Part shown: positions 1,395 through 50,824 of the stretch, piece after piece
Numbering within the stretch: position 1 is the first letter of the stretch
Layout of the letters: each line of letters opens with the position of its first letter
Source of the DNA: Haliotis rufescens
Lineage: Eukaryota
Length of the DNA stretch: 64,000 bases
Reading direction: 5' to 3'
Assembly (NCBI RefSeq): GCF_023055435.1
Contig: NW_025964112.1
Span: 41,664,001 to 41,728,000 of the forward strand
Translations under genes and position numbers: made by a program
Notes under the pieces: model-generated
Seen by the model: the letters and a program-made list of their open reading frames with translations, nothing else
What the model was told of the DNA's origin: nothing
The model's database searches: none

Positions 1395-1571
1395 CTAGTT
1401 AAGACGCTGAACGTAGTTGGAAGGCAACATTCCCCGCTTGTTTGTCCGTTCTACTGTGCCATACATCCAGCCGTCATCCACAGGTTCACAGTTGATGATT
1501 ACGTCGTTCTCCATAAAGCTCACCTCGTCCGTATCAGCTGCTGCGTAGTCGTACAATGCTTGAGAGACAAT
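1395..1571 (-). CDS. Lasp: Terminal exon, SH3 domain: [58 protein letters not shown]
   Basis: Acceptor CCCTTTCTTCAG, phase 0. ALYDY, GWMYGTV and GMLPSNYV are hallmarks of the LASP/nebulin SH3. TAG at 1397-1395. Confidence 0.97.
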
Positions 1572-9232: not shown

Positions 9233-9248
9233 GATGCGATTTGCCTAC

Positions 9249-10098: not shown

Positions 10099-10445
10099 AT
10101 GAGTGAGTGAGTGATCTTAAGCCACTTTTAGCAATATTCTAGCCAAATCAGGATGGGAGGGGGGACACTAGAAATGGCCTTCACACATTGTACCCATAAT
10201 GGGATTTGAACCTTTCGCTTGATAAGTGAACACTTTAACCACTAGGCTACCCCACTGCCCTTCACAGCAATGAGTGAGTGAGTGAGTGAGTGAGTGAGTG
10301 AGTGAGGTTTTACTCCGCTTTTAGCAATATTCCAGCAGTATCATAGTGGCAGACCCCAGAAGTGGCCTTGAAACATTGTACACATGGGAAATCAAACCCA
10401 GGCCTTCGTCATGACAAGTAAACACTTTAACCACTAGGCTATGCA
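10099..10445 (-). mobile_element. Two tandem diverged SINE A copies
   Basis: Two (GAGT)n...TTTTAGCAATATTC...TTTAACCACTAGGCTA units. Confidence 0.85.
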
Positions 10446-12687: not shown

Positions 12688-12837
12688 CTTGCACAGGCCT
12701 AAAGGGTGTGTACATGGACCCCTGGCCTGGCCGCGCCTGCGGCTGAGACGTGTACTGGCTGCTTGGAGCAGGGCTGCTGTTTGGCATTGGGTTAAAGTTA
12801 ACTGACCCGATCTGCCTTTGCACGGAACTAAACTGGC
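12688..12837 (-). CDS. Lasp: 150-nt linker exon GQFSSVQRQIGSVNFNPMPNSSPAPSSQYTSQPQARPGQGSMYTPFRPVQ(G)
   Basis: TTTACAG acceptor, AAG|GTAGGT donor, phase 1-1. Paralogous to exon 14089 (RQIGS...P). Confidence 0.85.
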
Positions 12838-13849
12838 CTGTAAATGCAACGCACTGTGAGTAAGCAGAGTTACACGGTGCTGGAAAGTATTAACCTGTTA
12901 GCGGGAGCTTGGGAGAGTCTGTTAGGGGGAAGCTTTGGTTGGATGGATGCAGGGGCCATCCTTCTGACAGGCACTCATGTTTCTAAACCTGCTGGAATAT
13001 CCTTGTGAACATTTGACCATCATTGAACACAAATCTGGATCAACATTTACTGGAAAACTATTCAGAGATTCAGGTTTACTAACATCTTGATTCCTTCTTA
13101 ATATCTAAAAATCATGTTCTGAATAATCAGAGGACAAAGAAATACCATTTCTGGGTCATCATGCACAGTTTTGTTTCATTTTTCAGTGGCTTCGAAGATG
13201 TGAAAGTTACAAGACGGAACGAGCAACAGATGCATGCGATTTCAGTAACTAGCCTAGTCTTGGACCAGTAGAGCCAATAAAGATATAGTGGACTCCGTCT
13301 AAGTCCAAGGACCAAAACAGAGTTACTTTTTCGAAATGTTTTTTCAAAAATCTTCATCCTCTTCAAGAAGAGAGTGAGTGAGGTGGCAATATTCCACAGT
13401 TAGGGGCACATGTCCCTCACACTTTGAACCTTCGGTGGGCATCAAAACCAGTACTTTGGCATGACAAGCCAACACTTTAACCACCAGGCTATCAATACAC
13501 CTCTCCAACACAGCCACTTATCTCCACATCAACTGATTCTGTGACAATGGCTTGAACAGGGATGGTATATTAGTTATATACCCCGTCTTCAACTGGAAAG
13601 TTAGTCATGACAATGGGCTGAGTCTCTTCACTCTGCTGGACAGTAAACATTTCACTGGCATACATTTCAAATTTCAAAAAACATTTTATGAGGATCGATA
13701 GCTCACCCAACCTCTACACAAGGACTCCATTCATATGATCCTCCATGGTGCTTCTACAGCTCTAACATCGACACAATAACATAGAGCTACAACAACCATT
13801 GCAGTGCAAATAGTGCTTCAGTGACCAACCATTTCAGGGTTGATGCTGG

Positions 13850-21536: not shown

Positions 21537-23085
21537 ATGATAGGATCAGAAGTGATGGTACTCCACCCAATGGGAGGGGATATAGGATCAGTAGTGATGG
21601 TCCTCCACCCAATGGGAGGGGATAGGATCAGTAGTGTTGGTACTCCACCCAATGGTAGGGGATATAGGATCAGAAGTGATGGTGCTCCACCCAATGGGAG
21701 GGGATATAGGATCAGTAGTGATGGTGCTCCACCCAATGGGAGGGAACATAGGATCAGTAGTGATGGTGCTACACCCAATGGGAGGGGATATAGGGTCAGT
21801 AGTGATGGTAAACCTCCCAATGGTAGGGGATATAGGATCAGTAGTGATGGTACACCACCCAATGGGAGGGGATATAGAATCAGTAGTGATGGTACACCAC
21901 CCAATGGTAGGGGATATAGGATCAGTAGTGATGGTACTCCACCCAATGGGAGGAAATATAGGATCAGTAGTGATGGTGCTACACCCAATGGAAGGGGATA
22001 TAGGATCGGAAGTGATAGTAAACCACCCAATAGTAGATGATAGGATCAGTAGTGATGGTACTCCACCCAATGGTAGGGGATATAGGATCAGTAGTGATGG
22101 TAAACCTCCCAATGGAAGGGGATATAGGATCGGAAGTGATAGTAAACCACCCAATAGTAGATGATAGGATCAGTAGTGATGGTACACCACCCACTGGGAG
22201 GGGATATAGGATCAGTAGTGATGGTAAACCACCCAATGGTAGATGATAGGATCAGTAGTGATGGTGCTACACCCAATGGGAGGGGATATAGGATCAGTAG
22301 TGATGGTACACCACCCAATTGGAGGGGATATAGGATCAGTAGTGATGGTAAACCACCCAAAGGTAGATTATAGGATCAGTAGTGATGGTACTCCACCCAA
22401 TGATAGGGAATATAGGATCAGTAGTGATGGTGCTCCACCCACTTGGGGGAATATAGGATCAGTAGTGATGGTGCTCCACCCAATGGTAGGGGATATAGGA
22501 TCAGTAGTGAAGGTACTCCACCCCATGGTAGGGGATATAGGATCAGTAGTGATGGTACTCCACCCAATGGGAGGGAATATAGGATCAGTAGTGATGGTGC
22601 TCCACCCAATGGTAGGGGATATAGGATCAGTAGTGATGGTACACGACCCAATGGGAGGGGATGTAGGATCAGTAGTGATGGTACTCTACCCAATGGTAGG
22701 GGATATAGGATCAGTAGTGATGGTACTCTACCCAATGGTAGGGGATATAGGATCAGTAGTGATGGTGCTCCACCCAATGGGAGGGGATATAGGATCAGTA
22801 GTGATGGTACACCACCCAATGGAAGGGGATATAGGAACAGTAGTGATAGTAAACCACCCAATGGTAGATGATAGGATCAGTAGTGATGGTGCTACACCCA
22901 ATGGTAGGGGATATAGGATCAGTAGTGATAGTAAACCACCCAATTGGAGGGGATATAGGATCAGTAGTGATGGTAAACCACCCAATGGTAGATGATAGGA
23001 TCAGTAGTGATGGTACACCACCCAATGGTAGGGGATATAGGATCAGTAGTGATGGTACTCCTCCCAATGGTATGGCATATAGGAT
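21537..23085. repeat. 42-bp minisatellite with 40-bp variants, about 37 copies
   Basis: Unit GATATAGGATCAGTAGTGATGGTRCWCCACCCAATGGKAGGG. Confidence 0.96.
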
Positions 23086-26010: not shown

Positions 26011-26805
26011 CGTAGCAGAGGTCAGTTGTCCATACAGGAGGCAGATAACAAGTCCAGCCAGTCATTGCTGCTCCACAGCCTCACTTGGAGGCTCTTGTGG
26101 AAGCTCTTCAGCTGGTTCTTGAGGAACCTTGGTCACAGGTTCTTCTGCAACCTTTTTAGCTGGTTCTTGAGGAACCTCGGTCACAGGTTCTTCTGCAACC
26201 TGTTTAGCTGGTTCTTGAGGAAGCTCTTCAGCTGGTTCTTGAGGAAGCTCTTCAGCTGGTTCTTGAGGAACCTTGTTCACAGGTTCTTCTGCAACCTTTT
26301 CAGCTGGTTCTTGTGCAACCTTCTTAGCTGGTTCTTGAGGAACCTCTTTAACTGGTTCTTGAGGAAGCTCTTTAACTGGTTCTTGAGGAACCTTGTTCAC
26401 AGGTTCTTCTGCAACCTTTTCAGCTGGTTCTTGTGCAATCTTCTTAGCTGGTTCTTCTGCAACCTTCTTAGCTGGTTCTTCTGCAACCTTCTTAGCTGGT
26501 TCTTCTGCAACCTTCTTAGCTGGTTCTTGAGGAACCTCTTTAACTGGTTCTTGAGGAACCTCTTTAACTGGTTCTTGAGGAACCGCTTTAACTGGTTTCT
26601 GTGAAACTACTTTAGTAGGCGCTTGAGAGAGCTGTTTGGGTGGCTCCTCAGGAAGTTGTTTGGGAGATTGTTTGGGCACCTGTTTAGGAGCTCCAAGTTT
26701 GGGTTCTTGTAGTAATTGGGTTGGGGATTGAGGGGTGGGGGATTGAGGAGTGGGGGATTGAGGAGTGGGAGATTGAGGTGTGGGTTGGGAGGGTTGTGGA
26801 GCCAC
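26011..26805 (-). CDS. Lasp: Large PEVK-like exon: (PTPQS)n followed by about 21 8-aa [QE]EP[AV]KK[VL][AP]-type repeats, with an in-frame TGA at 26064-26062
   Basis: TTCTTGCTTACAG acceptor directly before the ORF's first codon (phase 0), 247 open codons, and an ACG|GTATGT donor at 26010. Length 795 nt is a multiple of 3. Confidence 0.75.
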
Positions 26806-29803
26806 CTGTAAGCAAGAAGCCTACAAGTATTAAGACTTGTGTTTTCTTGTATTCCATCTCCCATCAATTATTTTCTTGACTTTAACTTTATCACATCAAT
26901 TTGCTCTTCAAGGAACTCTAATCAATGACTTCGGAAAAATTGAGTTCACTTAAGATTTTCTTATTATACTATTGGTTGGTTACTGTTCATTGCTTAATGT
27001 TTTTCATTTCCTACATCTGTATCAAATATACAATAAGCAGACACATCAATATTAGTAGCAACCAATCAATATTCTGTTATTGTATTTCACAGATCTACTC
27101 AGATCTACCAAAACTACACATCATGCAACAGTGAAGAAGCGGATGTTTTTGTTAATGTTAGATACTTATTTTGAGCTAAATCCCCAGTAGGAATTGTCAA
27201 CCAAATTTTGTTTCCAATGAAGAATTTTTTAGGTCCAGTAATAGTTTCTGGAAGGCTTGTGATGGTACCGGGTCACTTTATAGAGTTCGAAATTAAGCAT
27301 GAAAGTCAAGGGGTCCTTGTCACAACTCTCATGTTAAAAGTTGAAGATTTAGAATCAAATACTATCGGAGCATACCTCAAGAATTCCACCGCCTTTATTT
27401 CAAACATTGTTTTACATATGTCCACTCCGACAGATCAAGTCACAATATCCCATTAAGTCTGGTTGCCAGGGATAACACACCAAGTTTGGTTTAAAACTAT
27501 ATTTTGGCATGTTCAAATAACAGCATTGATGGAGTATAATAACGAATCACAGGACTGTCGTCGAACTCCATCAATTTGATTCAATATATATTCTGATGCT
27601 ACCCTTAATCACTCCAAAATTAATAGGACAGTATATATTCCAGAGCACTGCAATTAAAAAATGGGCGAGTGTGGTTTTACGCTGCTCTTAACAATATTCC
27701 ACCCATATTACAATACAACTTACCGATCCCGCTAGTCGCCTCTTACAACAAACATTGTCGCCTTTTAAGGCAAGCATTAAGGATTTTGATGCAATGATGG
27801 GAATTTTTTTTATCTGAAACTATCTTATCAGGGATAATATATTCCTATATCGCGTAATTTCAGATGCAGCTTTTACTATGTTTCAGTGTTCAATGCAGGT
27901 TAATACAACAGAAGTGCTGACAACAGCAGGGAAACACATGAATCACAAACCAACTGACAATGCAGTAAGAAACAAATGTTAAAATTAACAAATAATCTCT
28001 ATTTTAAACTTCTGGAGTGAAGTATAGTCACTGATTCAGCAACCATGGAAAAATCACCATGAAATGTAAACCTAGACTTGCATAAGTCTCTGAAGAAATA
28101 TGTTTTAATTTAAATTATAATTCCTAAATAATACGAAAAAGTTGTCCCTTTAAAAGACTGGAAACATGTTTTTGTACTAGAATGGCAACCTTAGAACTGT
28201 TGACTTATCTAGACTTGTGTTTTATACATATAAGGATAGAATTACTGTCCATGCAGTTACAATTCAGTACAGCCTTAGAGCAAGGCTAATGAACACCTAT
28301 CAATTTATATCACAAAATCCTTCACTTCAGAAAGAAAAGAACACACATAAGCTTTTTTTTTCTTTCAAAGTATTATAAACAAAAGAAAGCACACAAACGT
28401 ATCCACAATTAATGCCATCAGTCATTTCTTTAGTGCTGGAAAACAACAAAGACTTGCTGGTAAGTGACGCCAAGAAAAAGGCATGGTGCCAAAATCACAC
28501 TGCACTTTGATGACGGCCATGATACACTGACAGTCAGACATCCCCAACATACATAACAAAAAAACATTAATAACCTTTCCAAAATAAGCAGTATTTCAGG
28601 TTGGCAATATCACTATTTATTACATGGCTAACAAGGGCTCGTTTGGCCAGATCTCACTGAAAAATCTGTAAACAAATGTAACCAAAATTCTGTAAATCAT
28701 TGTACAATAATTTCAGACTTAGGGATGCCATATCAGATTGTTCCAAAGATACACACAAACAACCACAAGTTAGTGAGTTATCGCCCGATGGTAGCGAAAT
28801 GTTGTTTTTTATCAGGCACCCACCAACTCTACCCCTTTGACCACAAACCATCATGCCCCAGCAAAGTGTGAAGCAAATCACAAGTCTTGGTCCGATGTTT
28901 TGAAACATTCAAGGCCTCAGCAAAGTTTTCAAAATGTTTTTTTGTAGACATGGGGAGGACATTTCCAAATCTGATGTATCAGTGACAAAAATGATGTTCA
29001 ATGCAATTCCCTTTTTCCATTACACCAAATGTTTCCATGTTGTTTTTTCAGGTGAATAATTGACTTGCCTTTGCATGTGTTTGTGATAGGAGTCACCAGT
29101 GAGGCAGGATACGCACACGTTTTTGCGAAAACCTGGTGTCATCACTATTTGATAGTGATTCATAAACATATGCTCGTGATAGAATTGTATAATGGAATCC
29201 ACTTTTAGACATTTCTTATTAATATGGAAAGGGTTTCAGTATTTTATTTGCAAGATGATTTTGTAAGAAGATATTTGTTATGTATTGGCAGCAAGATTCT
29301 TTCAAAGATTCCTGTAGTATGGCAATACATTTTTTTACATTCAGCATCAGTATCATCTCCGTGTTCGATGCTGTGTTTATTGCTCATCGCTGCAGGGACA
29401 CTGCATTCAAACAAGGTACAACACTAAGTGCTGACATCAGCAAATTAGGTTAAAAGAATGTAAAAACAAATCCTGAAAAAACAGTTTTCTGTCTCATGTT
29501 GCTGCCATGGAGTAAACAATTAACAAAACATTCACACCGCCTCCCAAATACCAATATTACCAGATCAGTTTTCAATTGCTGAATCAGTCATGAAAACGAG
29601 CTTTTCTCATTCAGTGTTTGAGAAAAGGGTTATTTACCCATGAAGTACAACCACCTCAATATACCCCACTGCAGTCAGATCCCTCCTATCAAGGCCACTC
29701 TTCACATAACAATGTTAGGGCATTGTTAATAACGCAACAACAATCAGAGAATGCAGCCCCAGCATGATGCCTGCACGATGCCAACAATGGTCGCCCATCC
29801 TAC

Positions 29804-30502: not shown

Positions 30503-30607
30503 CTCACTAGCCAGTTTCTGATTGGTCATACTTCGTTTGAAATCGAGGGCATCAGCTGGCATGTTCACAGACATCTTGCCCTTCTCAAATTCACTGTGGT
30601 ACTCCAC
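30503..30607 (-). CDS. Lasp: Nebulin-repeat exon VEYHSEFEKGKMSVNMPADALDFKRSMTNQKLASE
   Basis: 105 nt, TAG acceptor, GTATAA donor, phase 0-0. Confidence 0.92.
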
Positions 30608-31054: not shown

Positions 31055-32584
31055 ACACTCAAATGTCAATAATCACCCTCAGACACTCCTAGTTTGACAC
31101 AAGTACAATGTCTGGATGTAGACCCAAAAATTGCACCAGATTGTGGAGCAAAGTCACCCTTTAATACCCTGGGCCGATTAGCTATGTTTTTGAGCCGATT
31201 TGCAATAACACGAGGCTAAAAATAGCCATCCAATCAAATCCCTATAAATGAGAGAAATTTTGCACTGTTAGAGAAATCCTGTGCTAATTTGTGCTAGAGA
31301 TAGGAGCGATGGAAGCTGTACTGCCGCTACAGAAGCAAAGATGGAATACCCCAGATAATGGAGGATGCTTCACTTGTCTTCAGAGCACAACCATTAAGAA
31401 CAGGACACATCAAGCATCTTTCCAAAATACTCTTACATCATGACAAATACTATTACATCATGATAAACATGATGTATATATGTAATCACAAAAAATCAAA
31501 TATGTAAATATACTTATATCAGCATCAATTTACAGATGGAAGATTTTAACATCATGAAGAAGATTATGTTTAAGAATGAGTCATTTAACTCGTAAGTTAA
31601 CCTACAAATAAGTCTATGAATTACAATGATACTCATTACATTTAAATCCGAAGTCCAGAAAACACAAGAATGCAAACTAGAACACATGCTCATATCAAGC
31701 GAAGAAAAGCGTACATCTTGGATGCGTAACTGCCACACAAAATTATTGGGGAAGAAGCCGAGCTTATGACATAAGTCTGTGTAGGCACATGTTATCTACA
31801 CTGTGAACCCGTAGAGATTCCATGCTGCCATTAAGAACATCTTAACGATCACAAAGATCAGTTCTAGCATTATATAACAGAATTATTGGACAAACATACA
31901 CAACTGAGAACACATGTTGAAGCATTTCAAACACTTATCCAAGATTGGCAGAATGATTTTGAAATTTTGAAATGACAATTCAATAAATAACAGCAATAAC
32001 AAAATAACAAATAATAATATAGAGTAAGTCAATCTACATCAACGACAGGACACTAATCACACCAGTCACGCTTTCAGGGATGAGAATCATTTCAGCTGAG
32101 TCAGGTTTCTAGGGGGATATCCCTACACAGTAATACATCTCATACAAATTATACCGTGATCTTAAAAGGTTCACTTCCAAACAAAAAGTCACTTTGAAAG
32201 AGTGAGCGAATGAGTTAGCAGAGGCAACAGTCCGCTTTAAGAAAAGTATCATCACAATGAATTCCTTGTCACAACATTTAGGGCAATTCTCAGTATTTTC
32301 TCAAAATATCAAATCTGATCTTGACCCTGGTCCAGGACCGACTATCCATGTGTATATGAGTGTATCACAGTCACACGTCTGTATGAGTTGAGTGAGTGAG
32401 TGAGTTACATTTTTCTGCATCAGTAATGTTACAGCATGGTCTGACAAAGTCCAGCATCAATGCCTGGCATTAATTGAACAACAACATACACACAAATCCT
32501 TTACACCTGCATGAACCTATTCACATTTACTTTTTGCAGTCAAATATCTCTGCTTGGTATCTCACTGGCTAACAACTACACTTC

Positions 32585-34537
32585 TTCAACAATTAGCTTC
32601 AGGGCAACCTGGATCTGATTGGTTAACAAGATAATACATTTCTCCAACAACTACCTTCAGGGCAACCTGGATCTGATTGGTTAACAAGATGATATATTCT
32701 CCAACAACTACCTTCAGGGAAACCTGGATCTGATTGGTTAACAAGATGATATATTCTCCAACAACTACCTTCAGGGAAACCTGGATCGGATTGGTTAACA
32801 AGATGATATATTCTCCAACAACTACCTTCAGGGAAACCTGGATCGGAATGGTTAACAAGATGATATATTCTCCAACAACTACCTTCAGGGCAACCTGGAT
32901 CTGATTGGTTAACAAGATGATATATTCTCCAACAACTACCTTCAGGGAAACCTGGATCGGATTGGTTAACAAGATGATATATTCTCCAACAACTACCTTC
33001 AGGGAAACCTGGATCGGAATGGTTAACAAGATGATATATTCTCCAACAACTACCTTCAGGGTGACCTGGATCTGATTGGTTAACAAGATGATATATTCTC
33101 CAACAACTACCTTCAGGGCAACCTGGATCTGATTGGTTAACAAGATAATACATTTATCCAACAACTACCATCAGGGCAACCTGGATCGGATTGGTTAACA
33201 AGATGATATATTCTCCAACAACTACCTTCAGGGCAACCTGGATCGGATTCGTTAACAAGATGATATATTCTCCAACAACTACCTTCAGGGTGACCTGGAT
33301 CTGATTGGTTAACAAGATGTTATATTCTCCAACAACTACCTTCAGGGCAACCTGGATCTGATTGGTTAACAAGATAATACATTTATCCAACAACTACCTT
33401 CAGGGCAACCTGGATCGGATTGGTTAACAAGATGATATATTCTCCAACAACTACCTTCAGGGTGACCTGGATCTGATTGGTTAACAAGATGATATATTCT
33501 CCAACAACTACCTTCAGGGAAACCTGGATCGGATTGGTTAACAAGATAATACATTTCTCCAACAACTACCTTCAGGGAAACCTGGATCGGATTGGTTAAC
33601 AAGATGATATATTCTCCAACAACTACCTTCAGGGAAACCTGGATCGGATTGGTTAACAAGATGATATATTTTCCAACAACTACCTTCAGGGTGACCTGCA
33701 TCTGATTGGTTAACAAGATGATATATTCTCCAACAACTACCTTCAGGGCAACCTGGATCTGATTGGTTAACAAGATAATACATTTATCCAACAACTACCT
33801 TCAGGGCAACCTGGATCGGATTGGTTAACAAGATGATATATTCTCCAACAACTACCTTCAGGGCAACCTGGATCGGATTCGTTAACAAGATGATATATTC
33901 TCCAACAACTACCTTCAGGGTGACCTGGATCTGATTGGTTAACAAGATGTTATATTCTCCAACAACTACCTTCAGGGCAACCTGGATCTGATTGGTTAAC
34001 AAGATAATACATTTATCCAACAACTACCTTCAGGGCAACCTGGATCGGATTGGTTAACAAGATGATATATTCTCCAACAACTACCTTCAGGGTGACCTGG
34101 ATCTGATTGGTTAACAAGATGATATATTTATCCAACAACTACCATCAGGGCAACCTGGATCTGATTGGTTAACAAGATGATATATTCTCCAACAACTACC
34201 TTCAGGGCAACCTGGATCGGATTGGTTAACAAGATGATATATTCTCCAACAACTACCTTCAGGGTGACCTGCATCTGATTGGTTAACAAGATGATATATT
34301 CTCCAACAACTTCCTTCAGGGTGACCTTGATCTGACTGGTCAACAAGATGATATATTCTCCAACAACTACATTCAGGGCGACCTGGATCTGTCTGGTCAA
34401 CAAGATGATATATTCTCCAACAACTACCTTCAGGGTGACCTGGATCTGACTGGTCAACAAGATGATATATTCTCCAACAACTACCTTCAGGGTGACCTGG
34501 ATCTGATTGGTTAACAAGATGATATATTCTCCAACAA
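32585..34537. repeat. 57-bp minisatellite with occasional 58-bp units, about 34 copies
   Basis: Unit CCAACAACTACCTTCAGGGCAACCTGGATCTGATTGGTTAACAAGATGATATATTCT; starts at 32644, 32701 and 32758. Confidence 0.96.
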
Positions 34538-35076: not shown

Positions 35077-35181
35077 CGCACTCAGAATTTTCTGATTAGA
35101 TTGGTGGCGCTTCATATCGGCAGAATCGGCAACTGTTGTGTATTGACTTTTCGTATGCTCAAAATCTTTGTGATATTCAAC
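35077..35181 (-). CDS. Lasp: Nebulin-repeat exon VEYHKDFEHTKSQYTTVADSADMKRHQSNQKILSA
   Basis: 105 nt, CAG acceptor, GTATGA donor, phase 0-0. Confidence 0.93.
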
Positions 35182-35836: not shown

Positions 35837-35941
35837 CCCACTGATGTTTTTCTGGTTGTCCTTATGGCGTTGCATCTCTAGAGGGTCGGCAACCACAGTA
35901 TAGTGAGATTTCTCCTTCTCAAAGTCACTGTGGTATCGAAC
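35837..35941 (-). CDS. Lasp: Nebulin-repeat exon VRYHSDFEKEKSHYTVVADPLEMQRHKDNQKNISG
   Basis: 105 nt, AAG acceptor, GTAATG donor, phase 0-0. Confidence 0.93.
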
Positions 35942-36280
35942 CTTTATAATACAAACATTCTAAAGTGAACAATCGGACCACAGAAACCACATTTATACAT
36001 GGATTCTTTGTACAGATATCTAATATGAACATGAGACCGATATGATAAAACTCCATATGTATACAAGGCATACAATCACCTATCTTCATGCATTTATTGG
36101 AAACGGATTAACAGGGTTGAAAAATCTTTGAATGATAGTCTGTCTTTCACATTTTAAGATAAAGAAACAATCCTGAAATATCTATCAATGTCTGTATCAT
36201 ATTTCTGAAGAATGCTTAACTATTTCAGTGGTTGATTGTACAGTGATCCCTCGCTATTGTGCTCTTCGATAAAGCCCTAC

Positions 36281-36382
36281 CTCGGTTACAACCGGCGGTA
36301 ACGCATGGCTCCCAAAATTTATGTACACTTTTAATACTGAGAGTTTTACACAGACATGATTGTATTGTTGTTCGTTGTTCAT
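36281..36382 (-). CDS. Candidate alternative first coding exon MNNEQQYNHVCVKLSVLKVYINFGSHALPPVVTE
   Basis: An ATG in CAAATG context opens 34 codons that end in phase 0 at GAG|GTAGGG, 340 nt upstream of exon 35837. It lies just downstream of a CpG/CCAAT-rich region. Confidence 0.35.
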
Positions 36383-36599
36383 TTGCACATAACGCTTCTC
36401 ATTGCATAATCAACCGTTTATCGCTGAATGGAGTTCTAATAATCTGTTTGAAAACATCAGCGGCAAGTCCCGGAAATACGATTGTTCTACTAATTAACTT
36501 TTCACACTATACATCCTTTGATCTTAGAAGCGCATGCATGCAATAAAAGAGAACCACAAGCGAAGTTTATATTCTTAATTAGTGGGCAATCCAATTTGA

Positions 36600-37140
36600 G
36601 GTGACACTGTCAAAACACATGTAGTTGCTGTCACAATACGGCGGTCATTCCTTTTGATTCGGATCAAGTAACTGTATCAAATCAATTAATCTGTCTTGAA
36701 TGTGTATCTATATTTGTATGAATGTGTATAAATGCGCGTAGTGCTGGTCAAAACTCTCGTTTTCCGTATTTTAAGCAACATGACCAATCAATGCCACTGA
36801 AACACTCTGTACTTGTGTAATGGATTGTGATTGGCTCTTCACTCATAGCGTCTGTTACTACCATTATCGATCGATATTTTCATGTAAGTAGACTACATTC
36901 ACATTGAATGTGACAGTTAAGGCTTGTAAATAATAACAAACGGCGAAAACATAATGGATATATATTTTTACACTATGAACGGTAAACAACTTGTATCATT
37001 GCAATGTTCGAGACAAGGCGAAGATCGTGAGATTGGTCGAGCGCGCTCCCCCGCCTCGGCCTCGGTTAAAAGGCTCATCGTCTATAACGCCCACCAATTA
37101 TTTGGACCCCATTGGAAGCATTGTAGCGAGGGACCACTGT
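36600..37140. promoter_or_regulatory. CpG-enriched region with several CCAAT/ATTGG boxes and a GC box; possible internal promoter
   Basis: CCAAT near 36784 and 37095, ATTGG near 36830 and 37032, and GAGCGCGCTCCCCCGCC near 37040-37056. CpG density is visibly above the flanks. Confidence 0.4.
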
Positions 37141-37876
37141 ATATTCAAATTGACTCCTGTGAATTCTATTGTCCCAGTAATAATTCCATGTGCCCATATT
37201 GCATACTGACATATGTACCTTTCATACACTATTACAATCTACACATAGACACATCTTATTAGATATTAGTAATTTGTGTCACTACTACATAAACATGCAT
37301 GCTTACAATGGCTAGTAGCTGAGGAGACCTTGGTAAATGACCCTTATATAAACATTCCGCTCATATTAATAAATATTCTTTCATTTATGGCTCAAAATGT
37401 ACCACCAGTATTTTGTTCGGTTACATGCTCAGAAATATTCCAGCATCATGACAGTGGACTGTAAATAATCCAGTCTGGGCAAGACAGACCAGTGACTGAT
37501 ATTATGAGCAACAATCCATGCCATCATCTCATAAAATCTAGAATTCTGTGCTTGTAAAAACTTAGTTGCATTAGTATAAGCTTCAATTACTGTCTCGCAT
37601 ATCTGTTATGAGATGAAAACATGAATAAGTTTTCAATCCCCATTTATAAGTGCTTGGCCAAGAACATAAACAGATATTTTTCATCCATGTAATTTCTGAC
37701 ATATTTCATCTAATTTACTCCGATCAGTCATATAATGATAAATATTGACCTTCCCTTTCAACATGAGTCACAGATTACTGAGCAATATCAGCACAAATTC
37801 CCCATGCTGAGTGACAAAAGCATTACAGATTACTTATAACAGGGACAAAATGCCCTGTTCATGCATTTTAATACAG

Positions 37877-38044
37877 TGAGTTTGAATGAGTTTTGTTTTA
37901 CACCGCTTTTAACAATATTCCAGCAATATCATGGCGGGGGACACCAGAAATGGGCTTCACACATTGTCCCCATGTCGGGAATCGAACCCGGGTCTTCGGC
38001 GTGACGAGCGAACACTTTAACCACTAGGCTACCCGACCGCCCCC
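37877..38044 (-). mobile_element. SINE family A, full-length
   Basis: Near-identical to the 48895 copy; TSD ATTTTAATACAG on both sides. Confidence 0.92.
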
Positions 38045-38572
38045 ATTTTAATACAGCCATCAATTGCAGGAAGATTGTAAGAAGAATTATACCATGCAGA
38101 TACTGGCTTCAGAAGCAACATCATAATGTGATACAAGCCATGCAGACTTACTGACAGTGAGTTAGTGAATGGGCCTGTATGCCATGGTCACTTGCACAAC
38201 AGTCTATGATGTGAGTGAATTTTAGCATATAAATATGAAGTGCAAATAGAATCATTTTCAACTTAAAGCCAAAATATGACAACCACTGAATGTGCAAAGT
38301 AAGTTGGTGATTAGTGAAGCAGTTTTATTCACAATCACATGCCATTACTGGTTCCAGTTCTTATTCTAGTTCCTGATTATTCAAGCAAATTATTCAATGT
38401 TAAGTCTGCAAATACTCAGTCAATCGTGTTAGATTTGTATATCCCTTGAAACCAAAGGAACTGACTTGTAAAAAGAAGTTGTTCATTTGAAACAAAATAA
38501 CACAACATTGTTAATCATAGTTATTACATTTATTTCACAATAATTTAACATGCTTGAAGAATATCTTTATAC

Positions 38573-38677
38573 CAAGCTAGCATTCTTGGTGGCAGCCATG
38601 GCAGTTTTGAGGGTCAAAGGGTCAGCAATAGACTTGACCTTGCCCTTGGACTCCTGAAAGTCTTTCTTGTACTGAGT
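38573..38677 (-). CDS. Lasp: Nebulin-repeat exon TQYKKDFQESKGKVKSIADPLTLKTAMAATKNASL
   Basis: 105 nt, CAG acceptor, GTATAA donor, phase 0-0, YKKDF nebulin core. Confidence 0.93.
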
Positions 38678-39127
38678 CTGGGAATTGATGATGAATAATT
38701 CATGTTCATGACTTATGTAAAACACACATTTATTACATGCAAACAGATTATCTAGACTTGTATAGCTGGCCAGTCCTTGTTTTATCCCCTTCACAGAATG
38801 CCAGGATAACAACAAGTACCATCTTTTACTGTCTTTTGGTATGACACAGCTGTGGATCAAACCACCAGGCTGACGCTCTATCAGGTTTTACTGAGTACTG
38901 ACAAACAAAAAGTAAATGTTTTAGTTTCGTTACCAGAAGCTGAGAGATAATATACTTTGCACTGATGGCAAATAAAATGGTTATATGTTTGTCTCATACA
39001 GGTTAAGAGACAAATCTTCAAAATTCATCATACATCAAAAGTATTTTATCTCAGAGATTACATGAGACACAATAAAGCAGCATTTTTTAAAGGGTTTTAA
39101 TATCATATTTATCATCATCAACCATAC

Positions 39128-39232
39128 CGTGCTAAGGTTCTTTGTGTTTTCAAGACATTTCCTGACCGACATGGGATCAACCACCGTCGTGTAGTTTCCC
39201 TTGGTCTTCTCGAAGTCAGCATGGTACACATT
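39128..39232 (-). CDS. Lasp: Nebulin-repeat exon NVYHADFEKTKGNYTTVVDPMSVRKCLENTKNLST (cluster)
   Basis: 105 nt, TAG acceptor, GTATGG donor, phase 0-0. Confidence 0.92.
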
Positions 39233-39495
39233 CTAACAGTAACAAATTAGACATTAAAACCTTCATCAGATGAACTGCAGCAAGCTTGGACACCTACTTC
39301 CTGTTTAGACTAGACAAGGTGGACGGACCAAATATTTTGTCTTTTTTTTCAACAACTTAGGATTCCCAGTACATGTTAATTTAAACTGGTGAGCAATTCC
39401 TATAGAGTATTCAAAGCACACAATTAAAACACCTTTAATTCCTTCCTACTGAAATCTACAGCTATCACAACACAACACAAGGGTTTACCCCATAC

Positions 39496-39600
39496 CGCAC
39501 TAAGATTCTTGGTATTCTCAAGACACTTCTTCATGACCAGGGGATCCACAACCGTAGTATAGTCACTTTTGGTCCTCTCAAAATCAGCATGGTACCGAGT
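39496..39600 (-). CDS. Lasp: Nebulin-repeat exon TRYHADFERTKSDYTTVVDPLVMKKCLENTKNLSA (cluster)
   Basis: 105 nt, TAG acceptor, GTATGG donor, phase 0-0. Confidence 0.92.
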
Positions 39601-40139
39601 CTAGCTCAACGAAACCAATCAGAAATTAATCTGGTTCAAAAACATTGAAAGAACAAACTCGGCTTCCTAAGCCTGACAGACTTTTAACAACTGAACTACC
39701 AATTGATGCATTACAGGCTAGAGTTTTCAGCCACTAAGTACTATTCGAGCAATATCACTGTGGGGGAACCAAATATGGGCTTCACACGTTGTATCGAACT
39801 GGTAAATCAATGTTCCCGTGTGAATGTTTAACCACAAGGTCACCCAATTGACCAAATGCTACATCTACAAGCCATGCTACAAGCTCTTGAATAAGCTTTT
39901 GAGAAAGTTGATATTATCCTTTGAACTTTTAAAGATTCCCTCGACATGCATCTCAACACCAACAAAGTCCGCAAGTGAACAAGGAGTGGCAGCAATATTG
40001 AGCAGTATACAATGTGCCCATATTTGCAAATGAAGCCTCGTCTTATTTTGGCCCAATATCCTAGTGACAGTGCAACTACTTCTACGGCTAAGTTTCTACA
40101 AGACATCACAACATCTACTAAACAAACTACGCTGCATAC

Positions 40140-40244
40140 CGAACTTAGATTCTTGGTACTTTCAAGACATTTCTTCATAACCAGGGGATCCACAACCGTA
40201 GTGTAGTCACTTTTGGTCTTCTCAAAATCCGCATGGTAGGCACT
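40140..40244 (-). CDS. Lasp: Nebulin-repeat exon SAYHADFEKTKSDYTTVVDPLVMKKCLESTKNLSS (cluster)
   Basis: 105 nt, CAG acceptor, GTATGC donor, phase 0-0. Confidence 0.92.
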
Positions 40245-40673
40245 CTGGCACAAGTAAACCAATCTGTTATAAGATTTATTTAAGTGGTTGAAACCATCTA
40301 GGTCCAACTCCACGAACACATCAGCGAAAGTAGCCATGCAACAGTGTGCAAGCTCTTGAACAAGTCTTTCAGAACACGTTAAGTGACGTTTTACACTATT
40401 TTAGCAATATTCCCATTGGGGAATCAAAAATAGGATTCGACACGACAAACAAACACTTTAACCACCAGACCCAATACACCCTTAAGAACAGAATAAAGTT
40501 GTCTTTAATGATTCTCAAATTGTTTCAAGAGGTTTGGTAGAAACACTAATTCTCTGCATCAGGCAATATAAGAAACTGAGACAAGGCGATCCCAAATCAA
40601 AATTTGACTTTAGCAGATTTCTGATCTAACTACAACAAAACAACAGCTAGGTGCTCATTGAACTTCATCATAC

Positions 40674-40778
40674 CACGCTAAGATTCTTGGTACTTTCAAG
40701 ACATTTCTTCATGACCAGGGGATCCACAATCGTAGTATAGTCACTTTTCGTCCTCTCAAAATCAGCATGGTAGGCACT
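40674..40778 (-). CDS. Lasp: Nebulin-repeat exon SAYHADFERTKSDYTTIVDPLVMKKCLESTKNLSV (cluster)
   Basis: 105 nt, CAG acceptor, GTATGA donor, phase 0-0. Confidence 0.92.
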
Positions 40779-41131
40779 CTGACATAATGAAACCCATATG
40801 TTATTAATCTTTTATCAATCTGTTCATGTTGTATTATCTAACAAACTCCTGGTTGAGTCTATACCTTCTTCACATCAGCAACAGAAGCCATGCTACAGTG
40901 TGCCTGACTTTGACTGGACTGAGTTTTTTGGCTTGACAACACATATCTACCTTTCATGATTCTCAATAATTATTTTAAGAGGTCATTGCAGGACAAATTT
41001 CTTGAAAATGTGAATGATTTTGTAGATGCATCAAGACTCTGCTTCAGACAATATGGGCACTGGAGACATGGCGATACCAAATCTAAACTACGACAACACA
41101 ACAGCGACGTGCCAATAGAACAGCATCATAC

Positions 41132-41236
41132 CGCACTAAGATTCCTGGTACTTTCAAGACATTTCTTCATGACCAGGGGATCCACAACCGTAGTATAGTC
41201 ACTTTTCGTCCTCTCAAAATCAGCATGGTAGGCACT
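41132..41236 (-). CDS. Lasp: Nebulin-repeat exon SAYHADFERTKSDYTTVVDPLVMKKCLESTRNLSA (cluster)
   Basis: 105 nt, CAG acceptor, GTATGA donor, phase 0-0. Confidence 0.92.
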
Positions 41237-41627
41237 CTGGCACAAGGAAACCCATATGTTATTAATCTGTTCCTGTTGTATTATCTCACAACCTGCGTCA
41301 AACTCCTGGTTGACTCCAAACCTTCTTCACATCAGCAACAGAAGCCATTCTACAGTGTGCCAGCTCTTGTACTAATCTGTGATTTTTGGCTCGACAAGCA
41401 AGCACTTAAACAACCAATATTCCCTCCACCATCCCCAATAACAGCAAATATCTAGCTTTCATGACTCGGAATAATTATTTTAAGAGGTCATTGCAGGACA
41501 AAATTCTTGAAAATGTGAATGATTTTGTAGATGCAACAAGACTCTGCTACGTAAACAAACTTGTGAGCAGATTTCTGATGTAACTTCGACAACACAACAG
41601 TGACGTGCTAATTGAACTTTATCATAC

Positions 41628-41732
41628 CACGCTAAGATTCTTGGTACTCTCAAGACATTTCTTCATGACCAGGGGATCCACAATCGTAGTATAGTCACTT
41701 TTCGTCCTCTCAAAATCAGCATGGTAGGCACT
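41628..41732 (-). CDS. Lasp: Nebulin-repeat exon SAYHADFERTKSDYTTIVDPLVMKKCLESTKNLSV (cluster; same peptide as exon 40674)
   Basis: 105 nt, CAG acceptor, GTATGA donor, phase 0-0. Confidence 0.92.
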
Positions 41733-42163
41733 CTGGCACAAGGAAATCAATCAGAAATGAACCTTTCACTGACATGTGATAACTTTGATATCCACCAACA
41801 GCTTATACCTACCGTAATATCATGGTAACAAACAATGCTACAGTGTGCTAAAACATTCAAGTCTTATTCCAGTCAACCACCATACAAATACACATGTCGC
41901 ACACCAAGTGCTTTCAAACAACAACAGCTGAGCCTCTCATATGTTTCCAGTGATGTTGAAAACAGATCAGCAATCATATGAATTATGATCATGATAACAG
42001 TTAGTAGCCAAAAAACTTTTGATAAGTACATAATACATTCCATATTTGGATTTGAAACTTGCCCTGTGATGGCCAACCACCCAATTGTGACTTGAGACAG
42101 TGGACTACATATACTGACTTCACACAAACACCACAACATATATCTGGCACCACTGCATCATAC

Positions 42164-42268
42164 CGCACTTAGATTCCTGGTGTTTTCAAGGCATTTCTTC
42201 AGGTGGAGGGGATCTACAACCGTAGTATAGTCACTTTTGCTCTTCTCAAAATCCGCACGATACAGAGT
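42164..42268 (-). CDS. Lasp: Nebulin-repeat exon TLYRADFEKSKSDYTTVVDPLHLKKCLENTRNLSA (cluster)
   Basis: 105 nt, CAG acceptor, GTATGA donor, phase 0-0. Confidence 0.92.
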
Positions 42269-42284
42269 CTGGCATAAGGAATCA

Positions 42285-42599
42285 TGAATGAGTGAGTATG
42301 GTTTTACGCCACTTTTAGCAATATTACAGTTGGGACACGAGAAATGGGATAACACATCATACCCATGTGGGAAATTGAACCCGGGCTTTTGGTGTAACAA
42401 GCTAACGCTTTAACTAATAGTCTGAATGAGTGAGTGAGTGAGTATGGTTTTCAACGCTTTTAGCAATATTCCAGCAATATCACGGCGTGGGACACCAGAA
42501 ATGGGCTTCACACATTGTAGCCATGTCGGGAATCAAACCCGGGTCTTCGGTGTGACGAGCAAACGTTAAAACCACTAGGCTACCCGACCGCTCCTCACC
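42285..42599 (-). mobile_element. Two adjacent SINE A copies (about 42285-42418 and 42431-42599)
   Basis: Both match the family consensus. The second has TSD AGTCTGAATGAG and sits at the head of the first. Confidence 0.88.
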
Positions 42600-43137
42600 A
42601 GTCTGAATGAGCATGAATGAGTTATGCGTGAGTAGAGAATCTATTACAACAAAATGTTGAAAGAACAGCTTTTGGGCAAACATGTTACAACCGACAGAAC
42701 ACAAATCTACCACAACGGCACATCAACAAGCCATGCTACAGTGTGCAAGCCCTGGCATATGCACTCCAGAAAAGATGATACTCTCTAATAGTTCCAAGAT
42801 GAAACAACTGAAATAGGTCAATACAAGGACGAAAAGCACTGAATTAACAGTGAGTGAATGAATGGGTTTAACATGGCTTAGCTTGTTTCAGTTATATCAT
42901 ACTGACTTCGAGCCAACCAGTCTTTGTTTTATCAAGTTAATGATGAACCGGTGACAGGTACCTTCCTTTAACGTATTTTGTTACGACATGGCTTGGGATT
43001 GAACCACCGATCTTCTGTTCTCCAGGCAGAACCTCTATCCACTTGACCATGGAGGCAGTCTCATACAAGAGAATCAAGCTGCCCTGGGTGATTGTGCTAC
43101 TCAATTGTGGTCAATACAACATCATCAACCATTCTAC

Positions 43138-43246
43138 CCAACCAAATTTAATTCCTTGTGTTATTTCAAGACATTCTTCCATTAATGTGAATCTGCAAAA
43201 CCATTAGTAATGTCCGCTTCTCTAAATGAGCATGACACACAGATTA
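43138..43246 (-). pseudogene. Decayed copy (pseudo-exon) of the cluster nebulin-repeat exon
   Basis: On the + strand, ATTCCTTGTGTTATTTCAAGACATTCTTC and CTTCTCTAAATGAGCATGACACACAGATT align with ATTCCTGGTGTTTTCAAGACATTTCTTC and CCTCTCAAAATCAGCATGGTACAGATT of exon 44464. It has indels and no acceptor AG at the homologous position. Confidence 0.65.
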
Positions 43247-43519
43247 TCATACAACACAGCAGGCAGTATGGACTCTTAAGCTACAATGTTGTCAAAAGAC
43301 TAAGCGCCAATGTCTGGTGCCTATTTTCTGCCATGAAGACATCGTAACTAATACCATGACATTGTTTCAGTATAGTTAGTGTCGTCAGTAACTGCTCAAA
43401 TGGTATACATTCTAAAACTAGCACCCCAAGAAAGAATCATTAAACCTTGTGGGTAGGACTGTCAATTAGCCGAGCCTAGATCCCCTTTAAATTAGAACAA
43501 AGTGACATAACTATCAGTG

Positions 43520-44015
43520 ACAAATATAACACAAATGGTTCCTATTCCAAATACAGCTCTGATGATTCCTCATATTTCTGATACACCTCAGATGGTTCCA
43601 TATATTCCAAATACAATTCAGATGGTTCCTCATATTCCAAATACTGCTCTGATAGTTCTCCATATTCCAATTACAGCTCTGATGGTTTTCCATAGTCCAA
43701 ATACAGCTCTGATGGTTCTCCACATTCCAAATACAGCTCTGATGGTTCCATATATTCCAAATACAGCTCTGATGGTTCTCCACATTCCAAATACAGCTCT
43801 TATGGTTCTCCATATTCCAAATACAGCTCTGATGGTTCTCCATATTCCAAATACAGCTCTGATGGTTCTCCATATTCCAAATACAGCTCTGATGGTTCTC
43901 CACATTCCACATACAGCTCTGATGGTTCTCCATATTCCACATACAGCTCTGATGGTTTTCCATAGTCCACATACAGCTCTGATGGTTTCTCATTTTTCCA
44001 AATACAGCTCAGATT
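43520..44015. repeat. 30-bp minisatellite, about 16 copies (GATGGTTCTCCATATTCCAAATACAGCTCT)
   Basis: Direct inspection. Confidence 0.95.
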
Positions 44016-44463
44016 ATATCCTCATACACATATAAATGACCAAAGAAGGTTCAGCACGAAGGACAAAATATTTTTCCTTGGTCTCAAACCAGAACATTAG
44101 ACACTGTGCAGCAAACTCAGAGTAAAAGTATAAATAAAAGGAACTAGACCATCCAAAGATTTGTTTCCAACATCTTCAAACATATTTTACACTTTGGCTA
44201 AATGCGGATTTAACACATAAAACATATGCTGGGAATCAAACCATTATTCCATGAATGAACACATTATCCGCTGGGCTACAGTCACATCCACAAAGCATTG
44301 CTTTGAAGCCTGTATAACTGTTGTATGGCTGAATATGACAAGTTGCAGTATATTTGCAGCGAATAATGGACACTGGCTTTGCTATTAGCAAGCATGCTAC
44401 TATCTATGCGGCTATCGCCGAGATGCTGCACTAGTACAATACAACAGCATTATTTACCCATAC

Positions 44464-44568
44464 CGAACTCAAATTCCTGGTGTTTTCAAGACATTTCTTC
44501 ACATGGAGAGGATCGACAACTGTTGTATAATCACCTTTGGTCCTCTCAAAATCAGCATGGTACAGATT
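44464..44568 (-). CDS. Lasp: Nebulin-repeat exon NLYHADFERTKGDYTTVVDPLHVKKCLENTRNLSS (cluster)
   Basis: 105 nt, TAG acceptor, GTATGG donor, phase 0-0. Confidence 0.92.
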
Positions 44569-44915: not shown

Positions 44916-45020
44916 CACGCTGGCATTCTTGGAGTTCTGTAGAAGCTGTTGCAGTCCATTGGGGTCAGCAATGACGGTGTAGATGCTCTTGCTCTTCTCA
45001 AACGCGCTGTGGTACTGATT
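44916..45020 (-). CDS. Lasp: Nebulin-repeat exon NQYHSAFEKSKSIYTVIADPNGLQQLLQNSKNASV
   Basis: 105 nt, TAG acceptor, GTAGCT donor, phase 0-0. Confidence 0.92.
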
Positions 45021-48894: not shown

Positions 48895-49063
48895 TGAGTG
48901 AGTGAGTGAGTTTGGTTTTACGCCGCTTTTAGCACTATCCCCGCAATATCACGACAGGGGACACCAGAAATGGGCTTCACACATTGTACCCATGTCGGGA
49001 TTCGAACCCGGGTCTTCGGCGTGACGAGCGAGCGCTTTAACCACTAGGCTTCCCGACCGCCCC
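48895..49063 (-). mobile_element. SINE family A, full-length: tRNA(Asp)-like head, (ACTC)n tail
   Basis: A-box-like AGCCTAGTGG, GTC anticodon-like loop and B box GGTTCGAATCCC. 14-bp TSD TTTAGCCTTTATGG at 48881-48894 and 49064-49077. Confidence 0.92.
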
Positions 49064-50719
49064 TTTAGCCTTTATGGAGTTATAAACATAAAAACCTATG
49101 TGCACACTGTGCATAAATTTCCATTGTGGATTTACATAGTACGCACATCATTTCTTATGTTTGTACCTCCAGAAACGCAACGATATTGATGTTAATTATT
49201 AACACAGGAACATCTTCTGGGTCAAGGACTGTTGAAACCTAAACCAACAACAAGAAGCATTTTGATGGGCCCTTGTATATTCTGGATCTGGTGAATCATG
49301 AAAACATAAACTCATGCATGATAGTCAAAGTGCTAAGCTTGAGGAACAAGTCCTTATTACCAGAACAGTTAAGCATCAACTGCTTGTGATGCAGTATAAA
49401 GGGGTATGACATAAACAACATGATCCTTGTGAGACAAAGTCTCAACTCTCATCATGTCTCTGCTCAGCTTTGAACATGGAATGAGAACACATGGTGAACA
49501 CATGGTCAGGATGGTGAAGGCCAACCCCATCGGAGACAGAGGCTGGCTACTTGTGTTTCTGCTTTCACAAAATGTCTGTCATTTCAATGTCAAGTAGTAT
49601 CGCCATGTGAAAATTCAGCTGCATCATAGAATGGTTAATTCAGATGACAATGCTCATGTGACCCCTAATGTTTATATGTCGCTTGACACAGCAATATCCC
49701 CGCTATATGACGGCGGTTTGTAAATTATTGAGTCTGGACCAGACAATCCAGTGATTGACATCATGAGCAATGATCTACGCAATCGGGATACAAAGACATG
49801 CATCCACGAAGTCAGTGAGCCTTACCACCCGATCCCATTAGTCACCTCTTACAACAAGCATGAGTTGCTGAAGGTTAATTCTATCCAGTATGGGGGCGTG
49901 ACCTTGTATGGCTGCCTTGGAAGTTATTTCTGCAACAGATATCTCCTATACCTAAATGAAACATAAACTTTATTTGAAATATTGAAACAGTTTGTCGCGA
50001 AGGCTGCACAGTGTGAATAGTTGAAAATCTGACTCTCTGTTGCGATATATCGTAACCAAGCAGTGTGTATCGTTGCCACATATGAACTTGACTGAAAATT
50101 AAAGGGGATTGGATGTTTTTTATGTGTGATCTGGGCAATCATGTGTCATCATATTATGATAGTTGCCATTACAGAATATTTAAAGGGATTGGATGCATAG
50201 GATAGTTTCTGTGACAGATGATTAATGGGGATTGGATGGATATGACAGTGTCTGTGATAGCAGATTAAAGAGGATTGGATGGATATGGCAGTTTCCGTAA
50301 TAGCAGATTAAGGGTGATCAGATGGTTATTAAGTGTGATCTGGTTGATCAAGCATCATCATATTATGATAGCTTACGAAAGAGAAGACAAAAAGGAGAAT
50401 GGGTGGCTATTGCATGTCATCTGTTCATGCATCATCATATTGTCATACACTGTGCTCATGCTATCAACCACTGGTTTTGCTGATCCAGAATCAATCACTT
50501 CACAGGCCTCAATACCATACCTGTTATGTTGTGGACTATGACGAAAACCCTATATCTATTAACACACTCAATCCATCTATATTGGGTTTTTTTTCAACTT
50601 TACTTTCCATGCACATATTTCTTCCTTGATTAAAGGAAACTAAAAGGTAAGCACAGCACACATTTGAGGGTGTACTACCGGCACCCTCCCTCAGTAAACC
50701 ATGCCTGGGTGTTAGTTAC

Positions 50720-50824
50720 CAGACTGGCATTCTTGGTGTTAAGCATGTGGCGCTGTAGCTCAGGGTTATCAGGTATCACTGTATATGAGGACTTGAACCT
50801 CTCGAACTCACTATGGTACTGTAC
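50720..50824 (-). CDS. Lasp: Nebulin-repeat exon VQYHSEFERFKSSYTVIPDNPELQRHMLNTKNASL
   Basis: 105 nt, TAG acceptor, GTAACT donor, phase 0-0, PDNPE motif. Confidence 0.94.

What the first reader, a model, noticed from the sequence alone, without database searches (positions are those of the whole stretch)
39128..44568. Young tandem array of eight near-identical Cys-containing nebulin exons duplicated together with their introns
Seen in sequence: eight exons share YHADFE[KR]TK[SG]DYTT[VI]VDPLx[MLV]KKCLE[NS]T[KR]NLS. The invariant Cys (KCLE) is absent from every other repeat in the gene. The introns are homologous too: a GCCATGCTACAGTGTGC-like motif recurs at about 39871, 40333, 40887, 41344, 41836 and 42730. 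Inference: the array is expanding by unequal crossover of roughly 450-650-bp cassettes. The exons may be included in series, which would place a Cys every 35 aa along the filament (a possible redox or cross-link site), or used as a mutually exclusive cluster.
Basis: partly seen in the sequence, partly recalled or inferred. Interest (0 to 1): 0.7.

Follow-up and report, generated by a model that had tools for sequence, protein, structure and literature searches.

The report
Abalone Lasp with optional repeat exons
An abalone gene for the small actin-binding protein Lasp carries eight copies of one short exon that are spliced in one after another or skipped, which likely changes how long a stretch of actin filament the protein grips; the shared cysteine comes from one founder copy and is probably not a special site.

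Summary
The array is real: eight 105-nt, phase-0 exons (A1-A8, minus strand, 44568-39128), each with one Cys. The gene is not nebulin but Lasp (LIM + nebulin repeats + SH3), with 16 optional one-repeat exons between its two ancestral repeat exons. RNA-run contigs join adjacent copies at GT-AG sites (A7>A8 in 3 of 4 runs, A6>A7 and A5>A6 in 2, A4>A5 in 1; three joints in one run pass the 31-letter bar), and loose ends point to forms that skip to A8. Use is serial and optional, not mutually exclusive. Only A3-A7 are near-identical (92-104/105 nt). Pooled dN/dS is 0.18. The introns between A2 and A8 exist in a second species, so the copies predate that split; one intron shows signs of later gene conversion. 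The Cys is one of 20 invariant residues of one clade (bootstrap 99), at a position where nebulin-family repeats mostly have Ala and sometimes Cys, also in octopus Lasp. Octopus and limpet Lasps have their own expansions; this scan noted the octopus case before. Likely role: splice-tuned length of actin grip. Modest interest.

The parts
44464..44568 (-). A1, Cys-type nebulin-repeat cassette exon (105 nt, phase 0)
   Evidence: present in protein record P0001; outside both laid stretches
42164..42268 (-). A2, Cys-type exon; not seen spliced; a dispersed-repeat insert abuts its 3' splice site
   Evidence: contigs of X16 and X18 run through it unspliced; insert
41628..41732 (-). A3, Cys-type exon (104/105 nt identical to A5)
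41132..41236 (-). A4, Cys-type exon
   Evidence: joint from its 3' end to an A5-type start in X17, short side 29 letters
40674..40778 (-). A5, Cys-type exon
   Evidence: joint A5(or A3)>A6 in X17 and X18
40140..40244 (-). A6, Cys-type exon
   Evidence: joint A6>A7 in X17 and X18
39496..39600 (-). A7, Cys-type exon
   Evidence: joint A7>A8 in X15, X16, X17; in P0001
39128..39232 (-). A8, most diverged Cys-type exon; followed by D1 in all four runs; entered from A7, U1 or exon 3
   Evidence: loose ends located; in P0001
40887..40903 (-). 17-nt conserved intron block about 90-110 nt before the 3' splice site (also 40333, 41344, 41832, 42730; partial near 39871 and near 44690); candidate splicing element, untested
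   Evidence: only one other exact copy in the genome
42283..42600 (.). dispersed-repeat (SINE-like) insert between the intron block and A2
   Evidence: 14 matches in the window, self included; very high depth
43543..44014 (.). 30-bp minisatellite in intron A1-A2
44916..45020 (-). U1, Cys-free repeat exon just upstream of the array
   Evidence: loose end U1>A8 in X18
50720..50824 (-). U2, optional repeat exon
   Evidence: in P0001 and P0045
63888..63992 (-). U3, optional repeat exon
   Evidence: same peptide in P0045
38573..38677 (-). D1, Cys-free repeat exon just downstream of the array
   Evidence: loose end at 39128 in 4 of 4 runs
35837..35941 (-). D2, optional repeat exon
   Evidence: Pfam Nebulin 23.8 bits, over cut-off; D2>D3 joint in 4 of 4 runs
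35077..35181 (-). D3, optional repeat exon
30503..30607 (-). D4, optional repeat exon
   Evidence: in P0001
29804..29908 (-). D5, optional repeat exon
   Evidence: near-identical peptide in P0045
24529..24717 (-). D6, ancestral Lasp repeat exon that runs on into the linker
1398..1571 (-). last coding exon, SH3 domain

Best explanation
This is a block of eight tandemly duplicated one-repeat cassette exons inside the abalone Lasp gene; copies are spliced in series or skipped as a block, which likely sets how many actin subunits one Lasp molecule grips in different tissues. Shown: gene identity, exon structure, copy-to-copy splice joints, one origin of the eight copies, purifying selection, presence in a second species. 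Inferred: each 105-nt phase-0 exon adds half of one repeat and half of the next, so any subset keeps frame and adds one actin-binding unit per exon (2 repeats in the short form, up to about 18); the array grew by unequal crossing-over and is partly homogenised by gene conversion; inclusion depends on tissue or stage; the co-duplicated 17-nt intron block may help regulate A1-A7 together. The Cys is most likely a tolerated small residue fixed in the founder exon.
For: LIM exons upstream and SH3 exon downstream; P0001 carries PF00412, PF00880 and SH3 and matches window exons letter for letter. 16 optional 105-nt exons between exon 3 and D6 in 324 kb scanned; of 14 listed protein records from three other Haliotis species, 13 join exon 3 straight to D6 and 1 includes three optional exons. 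GT-AG joints A7>A8 (3 of 4 runs), A6>A7 (2), A5>A6 (2), A4>A5 (1); loose ends for exon 3>A8 (2 runs) and U1>A8 (1 run). A7>A8 joint depth against D2>D3 depth is 36/36 in X17, 16/24 in X16, 5/37 in X15, and not listed against 295 in X18 (contig depth is a rough guide only). Pooled dN/dS 0.18 over 28 non-independent pairs. A1-A8 clade bootstrap 99. Actin-contact residues D3, S18, Y22 and K30 of the nebulin structure (10.1101/2021.10.06.463400, passages) are invariant in all 8 copies.
Against: No tissue labels for the runs; they are 'RNA?' by guess, though spliced joints show RNA. Only 3 joints, all in X17, have 31 or more letters on both sides; the others have 28-30, and the skip forms rest on 27-29 loose letters. 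A3, A4 and A5 share their first 48 nt, so the exact partners of the A4>A5 and A5>A6 joints are uncertain. No joint was seen for A1 (outside the laid stretch), A2, or into A3. The array's introns are also covered unspliced at depth about 4-19, so part of the RNA is unfinished or intron-retaining. Single A exons do not reach the Pfam cut-off (0 of 3 tested), and D19, K11 and K23 of the nebulin contact set are not kept. Actin binding was not tested.
Confidence: 0.75

Rival explanations
1. The exons are spliced in series, but the array is a tolerated by-product of easy cassette duplication; repeat number is not tuned for a function and selection only removes harmful changes.
For: Array joints are minor or unlisted in X15 and X18; A2 was never seen spliced and has an insert at its 3' splice site; repeat numbers differ among molluscs; none of 14 listed records from three other Haliotis species includes an A exon.
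Against: In X17 the A7>A8 joint is as deep as the D2>D3 joint; dN/dS 0.18 with dS up to saturation between A8 and the rest; separate expansions at the same place in octopus and limpet.
Confidence: 0.15
2. The Cys every 35 residues is the selected feature: a row of redox-sensitive or cross-linking thiols along the filament.
For: Cys in 8 of 8 copies despite saturated synonymous change; Cys at the same position in the first extra repeat of two octopus species; the next position contacts actin subdomain 4 in nebulin.
Against: 20 of 35 residues are equally invariant; one origin; the position holds Ala in 9 of 18 and Val in 5 of 18 repeats of P0013 and Cys in 1/133, 5/90, 1/44, 1/42 and 1/38 repeats of long nebulin-family proteins; the limpet expansion has Ala in 6 of its first 7 repeats. 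One repeat spans one actin subunit, about 5.5 nm (own knowledge), too far for Cys-Cys bonds within a bound chain; the cytosol is reducing (own knowledge).
Confidence: 0.1
3. The eight exons form a mutually exclusive cluster, with the intron block acting as a selector sequence.
For: Tandem similar exons with a shared upstream intron element.
Against: Copy-to-copy joints at four boundaries, in 4 of 4 runs for at least one boundary. No complementary docking site near the array: 2 candidate matches in about 115 kb, both upstream of the second LIM exon.
Confidence: 0.03
4. The copies are an assembly over-expansion or dead exons.
For: A3 and A5 differ at 1 of 105 nt.
Confidence: 0.02

Closest known systems
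Lasp family (Drosophila Lasp, vertebrate LASP1 and LASP2, C. elegans F42H10.3)
   Same: LIM + nebulin repeats + linker + SH3; the short form joins exon 3 to D6 and has two repeats.
   Different: 16 optional one-repeat exons between the two ancestral repeat exons. Drosophila isoforms differ only in the linker (PMC4137052, passages).
Vertebrate nebulin Z-repeats
   Same: Single-repeat, in-frame, alternatively spliced exons whose number varies by species and fibre type (PMC7754682, passages).
   Different: Z-repeats are 31 aa / 93 nt with SSVLYK in a giant protein; these are 35 aa / 105 nt in a Lasp and arose separately.
[quoted passage not shown]
   Same: Extra in-frame repeat exons lie inside a Lasp gene and can be skipped (10.64898/2026.10.05.756842, passages).
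   Different: Nebulette and lasp-2 share only their last exons there; here the long forms keep the LIM domain (P0001, P0045), and the insertion lies between exons 3 and 4.
Other molluscan Lasp genes (Octopus, Patella, Gigantopelta, Saccostrea, Ostrea, Mytilus, Argopecten records)
   Same: 3 to 7 or more extra repeats at the same place, present or absent among isoforms.
   Different: Most extra exons among those seen (but the others were counted from protein records, not genomes); the Cys-type clade was found only here.

Membership tests
Lasp (LIM and SH3 protein) | N-terminal LIM domain | tested here: met
   LIM exons about 6 kb and 52 kb beyond the window end; PF00412 on P0001; match to LASP-1 structure 1zfo
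Lasp (LIM and SH3 protein) | nebulin repeats after the LIM domain | tested here: met
   PF00880 on P0001; D2 and D6 over the cut-off as single exons
Lasp (LIM and SH3 protein) | C-terminal SH3 of nebulin/Lasp type | tested here: met
   exon 1571-1398; best PDB matches are nebulette, LASP1 and nebulin SH3, E about 3e-19 to 5e-19
Lasp (LIM and SH3 protein) | binds F-actin | not testable with these tools
   shown for other Lasps; inferred here
Nebulin repeat (exons A1-A8) | 35-residue unit with exon border inside the SxxxY[KH] motif and conserved actin contacts | tested here: inconclusive
   length, border, D3, S18, Y22, K30 met in 8 of 8; D19, K11, K23 not kept; 0 of 3 single A exons over the Pfam cut-off; they group within the Lasp repeats
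Nebulin (NEB) | giant chain of seven-repeat super-repeats | tested here: not met
   18 repeat exons in 324 kb scanned
Nebulin (NEB) | WLKGIGW troponin-binding motif | tested here: not met
   no Trp in any of the 17 exon peptides printed; motif
Nebulin (NEB) | no LIM domain | tested here: not met
   LIM present
Nebulin Z-repeats | 93-nt exons with SSVLYK | tested here: not met
   105 nt, motif absent
Nebulin Z-repeats | single-repeat exons included in variable number | tested here: met
   serial and skip forms
Mutually exclusive exon cluster (Dscam/Mhc type) | no splicing between cluster members | tested here: not met
   joints at four copy-to-copy boundaries
Mutually exclusive exon cluster (Dscam/Mhc type) | docking site complementary to selector sequences | tested here: not met
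   no match near the array at the threshold used

The most novel reading that the evidence does not exclude
Molluscs have rebuilt a short nebulin from Lasp independently of vertebrates. Abalone dials the protein from 2 to about 18 actin-binding repeats by muscle type, using a splicing element that was duplicated with each cassette to switch A1-A7 on as a block, and the long form acts as a thin-filament or dense-body stabiliser whose evenly spaced Cys residues make it redox-sensitive.
Probability: 0.15. Interest if true: 0.6.

Novelty: new variant of a known kind. Interest (0 to 1): 0.3.

Why it matters
It is a small, living example of the process that built nebulin and nebulette from a Lasp-like ancestor: one-repeat symmetric exons duplicated in tandem and spliced in variable number. 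Natural isoforms from 2 to about 18 repeats in one gene would let one test how repeat number changes actin binding. It also shows an annotation gap: the public protein record includes 3 of the 8 copies and is named 'nebulin-like'. The mechanism is known, so the surprise is modest.

Tried and rejected
The first lay was swamped by dispersed repeats; only the D2>D3 joint and some pieces were usable. The genome search with PF00880 rang nowhere, controls included, so it says nothing. Protein searches with an A4-based query found only P0001 among longer proteins and nothing among 22-70 aa proteins: weak evidence of absence. The idea that the intron block is a transposon remnant was tested and not supported (3 exact copies genome-wide, 2 here). 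A docking-site search gave 2 distant matches, taken as chance. Counts of recalled splicing-factor motifs around exons showed no clear pattern. In the tree the limpet repeats were left out by a parsing offset, and one 36-residue octopus repeat is out of register; deep branches are unsupported. No structure or complex was predicted: isolated nebulin repeats fold only on the filament. Literature searches listed no paper on molluscan Lasp repeat exons; the invertebrate Lasp survey cited as Fujita et al. 2021 was not in the library and could cover this, and bioRxiv supplements were closed.
Full report
Observation. Each is 105 nt, phase 0, with AG/GT ends. All 8 have one Cys; none of the 9 other 105-nt repeat exons in the window has any. 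A3-A7 share 92-104 of 105 nt; A1, A2 and A8 share only 74-88 with the rest. Spacings are 2300, 536, 496, 458, 534, 644 and 368. The quoted consensus fits 6 of 8 copies.

The gene. Scanning 324 kb (the window plus 200 kb upstream and 60 kb downstream) found 18 repeat exons, two LIM exons upstream and an SH3 exon at 1571-1398. The gene is therefore Lasp. The one protein found with an A4-based query, P0001 (773 aa, named by its source 'nebulin-like [Haliotis rufescens]'), carries LIM, nebulin and SH3 domains and includes only A1, A7 and A8 of the array. Of 14 listed records from three other Haliotis species, 13 join exon 3 directly to D6 (the ordinary two-repeat Lasp) and one includes U3, U2 and D5; none includes an A exon. 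So 16 optional exons (U3, U2, U1, A1-A8, D1-D5) lie between the two ancestral repeat exons.

Real or artefact. The introns differ from each other. Contigs of X15 (same species label as the best holder) and X18 (another species label) cover the array's introns; X18 covers all six introns from A2 to A8 at least in part, with 17 differences in 568 and 23 in 598 letters. The closest paralogous introns differ at 44 of 331 aligned columns, so even the youngest duplication predates that species split. Extra copies in other species are not excluded.

Splicing. I laid 4 of the 6 guessed-RNA holders. Joints with GT-AG ends: A7>A8 in X15, X16, X17; A6>A7 in X17, X18; A5>A6 in X17, X18; A4>A5 in X17. Three of these eight joint records, all in X17, have 31 or more letters on the short side (56, 34, 34); the others have 28-30. 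A3, A4 and A5 share their first 48 nt and A3 and A5 their ends, so two joints may involve other copies, but every reading is copy-to-copy, which mutual exclusion forbids. Loose ends show A8>D1 in 4 of 4 runs, exon 3>A8 in X16 and X18, and U1>A8 in X18 (27-29 letters). D2>D3 is joined in 4 of 4 runs. Rough depths of A7>A8 against D2>D3: 36/36 (X17), 16/24 (X16), 5/37 (X15), none listed/295 (X18, where A6>A7 is 7). The tool warns that contig depth is a poor measure, and tissues are unknown. Against a clean picture: the array's introns are covered unspliced at depth about 4-19, against 1 or less in the D2-D3 intron bin; A2 is crossed unspliced in X16 and X18 and no joint involves it; A1 lay outside both laid stretches.

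Evolution. A1-A8 form one clade (bootstrap 99), A3-A7 a subclade (94), and three octopus repeats a separate clade (89) among 40 repeats (limpet left out, one octopus repeat out of register). Pooled dN/dS is 0.18 over 28 non-independent pairs. At 4 of 5 listed sites in 41247-41300 the window matches the neighbouring intron A4-A5, while X17 and X18 carry other letters, those of intron A5-A6 at the same 4 sites; this fits gene conversion after the split, on few sites and a cut table. A 17-nt block lies 88-108 nt before the 3' splice sites of A3-A6, 461 nt before A2 (an insert of about 320 nt lies between), and in part before A7 and A1; it is not found before A8 or the Cys-free exons and has only one other exact copy in the genome. 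Several copies hold GCAUG, which I recall as the Rbfox motif, but A3 and A4 do not. A regulatory role is a guess.

The cysteine. In the numbering of the nebulin thin-filament structure (10.1101/2021.10.06.463400, passages) it is position 10 in helix H1. Contacts named there, D3, S18, Y22 and K30, are invariant in the array; K11, D19 and K23 are not kept. The Cys is 1 of 20 invariant residues. Position 10 is Ala in 9 of 18 and Val in 5 of 18 repeats of nebulette P0013, and Cys in 1/133, 5/90, 1/44, 1/42, 0/41, 1/38 and 0/18 repeats of seven long relatives. Octopus Lasp has Cys there in its first extra repeat; the limpet expansion has Ala. With one repeat per actin subunit, neighbouring Cys would be about 5.5 nm apart (own knowledge). 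The simplest reading is a tolerated substitution fixed in the founder exon. A redox role is not excluded.

Mechanism. Shown: symmetric exons, serial joints, skip forms, selection on the protein. Inferred: each exon adds one actin-binding unit, so splicing sets the length of filament gripped, from 2 to about 18 subunits, probably by tissue; growth by unequal crossing-over with later conversion. Drosophila Lasp regulates thin-filament length and spacing with two repeats (PMC4137052, passages); vertebrate Z-repeats vary by splicing with fibre type (PMC7754682, passages); nebulette exons sit inside the lasp-2 gene (10.64898/2026.10.05.756842, passages).

Novelty. Extra optional repeats at the same place occur in records of octopus, limpet, Gigantopelta, oysters, mussels and scallop, and this scan noted the octopus case earlier (e1-10341217, seen after I had reached this reading). 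Six literature searches (listings only) showed no paper on molluscan Lasp repeat exons; a 2021 invertebrate Lasp survey cited in the preprint was not available, and preprint supplements were closed. Verdict: a real, lineage-specific, serially spliced exon array in a known gene family by a known mechanism; new variant of a known kind, interest 0.3.

Noticed in passing
window 26062-26820 (-): 252-aa open frame of Pro/Glu/Val/Lys-rich 8-residue repeats (period 24 nt) between D5 and D6, not in P0001; a plausible in-frame 3' splice site near 26805 but no clear in-frame donor before the stop, so it would be a terminal exon or only an intronic minisatellite.
   Followed up: partly
window 35942-43400: Guessed-RNA contigs cover the introns from D2 up through the array unspliced (depth about 4-19) while the D2-D3 intron is nearly bare: slow or retained splicing of the optional region.
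   Followed up: partly
window 41247-41300: Signs of gene conversion between introns A3-A4 and A4-A5 in the window's species.
   Followed up: partly
window 42283-42600, 37883-38043, 48899-49064 and others: Abundant SINE-like dispersed repeat, 14 matches in the window; one copy abuts the A2 splice acceptor, and A2 also has His>Arg after the conserved Tyr.
   Followed up: partly
window 4488-12838 (-): The linker is built of short exons with repeated GGGF[RQ]T[TS]Y-like units, and their number differs among Haliotis records: a second region of exon duplication in this gene.
   Followed up: no
protein P0091 (Patella caerulea record): Separate expansion of six similar repeats (22-31 of 35 identical) with Ala at the Cys position.
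   Followed up: partly
window 21540-23085, 32582-34537, 5297-6253, 11168-11905, 43543-44014: Several long intronic minisatellites (periods 42, 57, 42, 27, 30).
   Followed up: no
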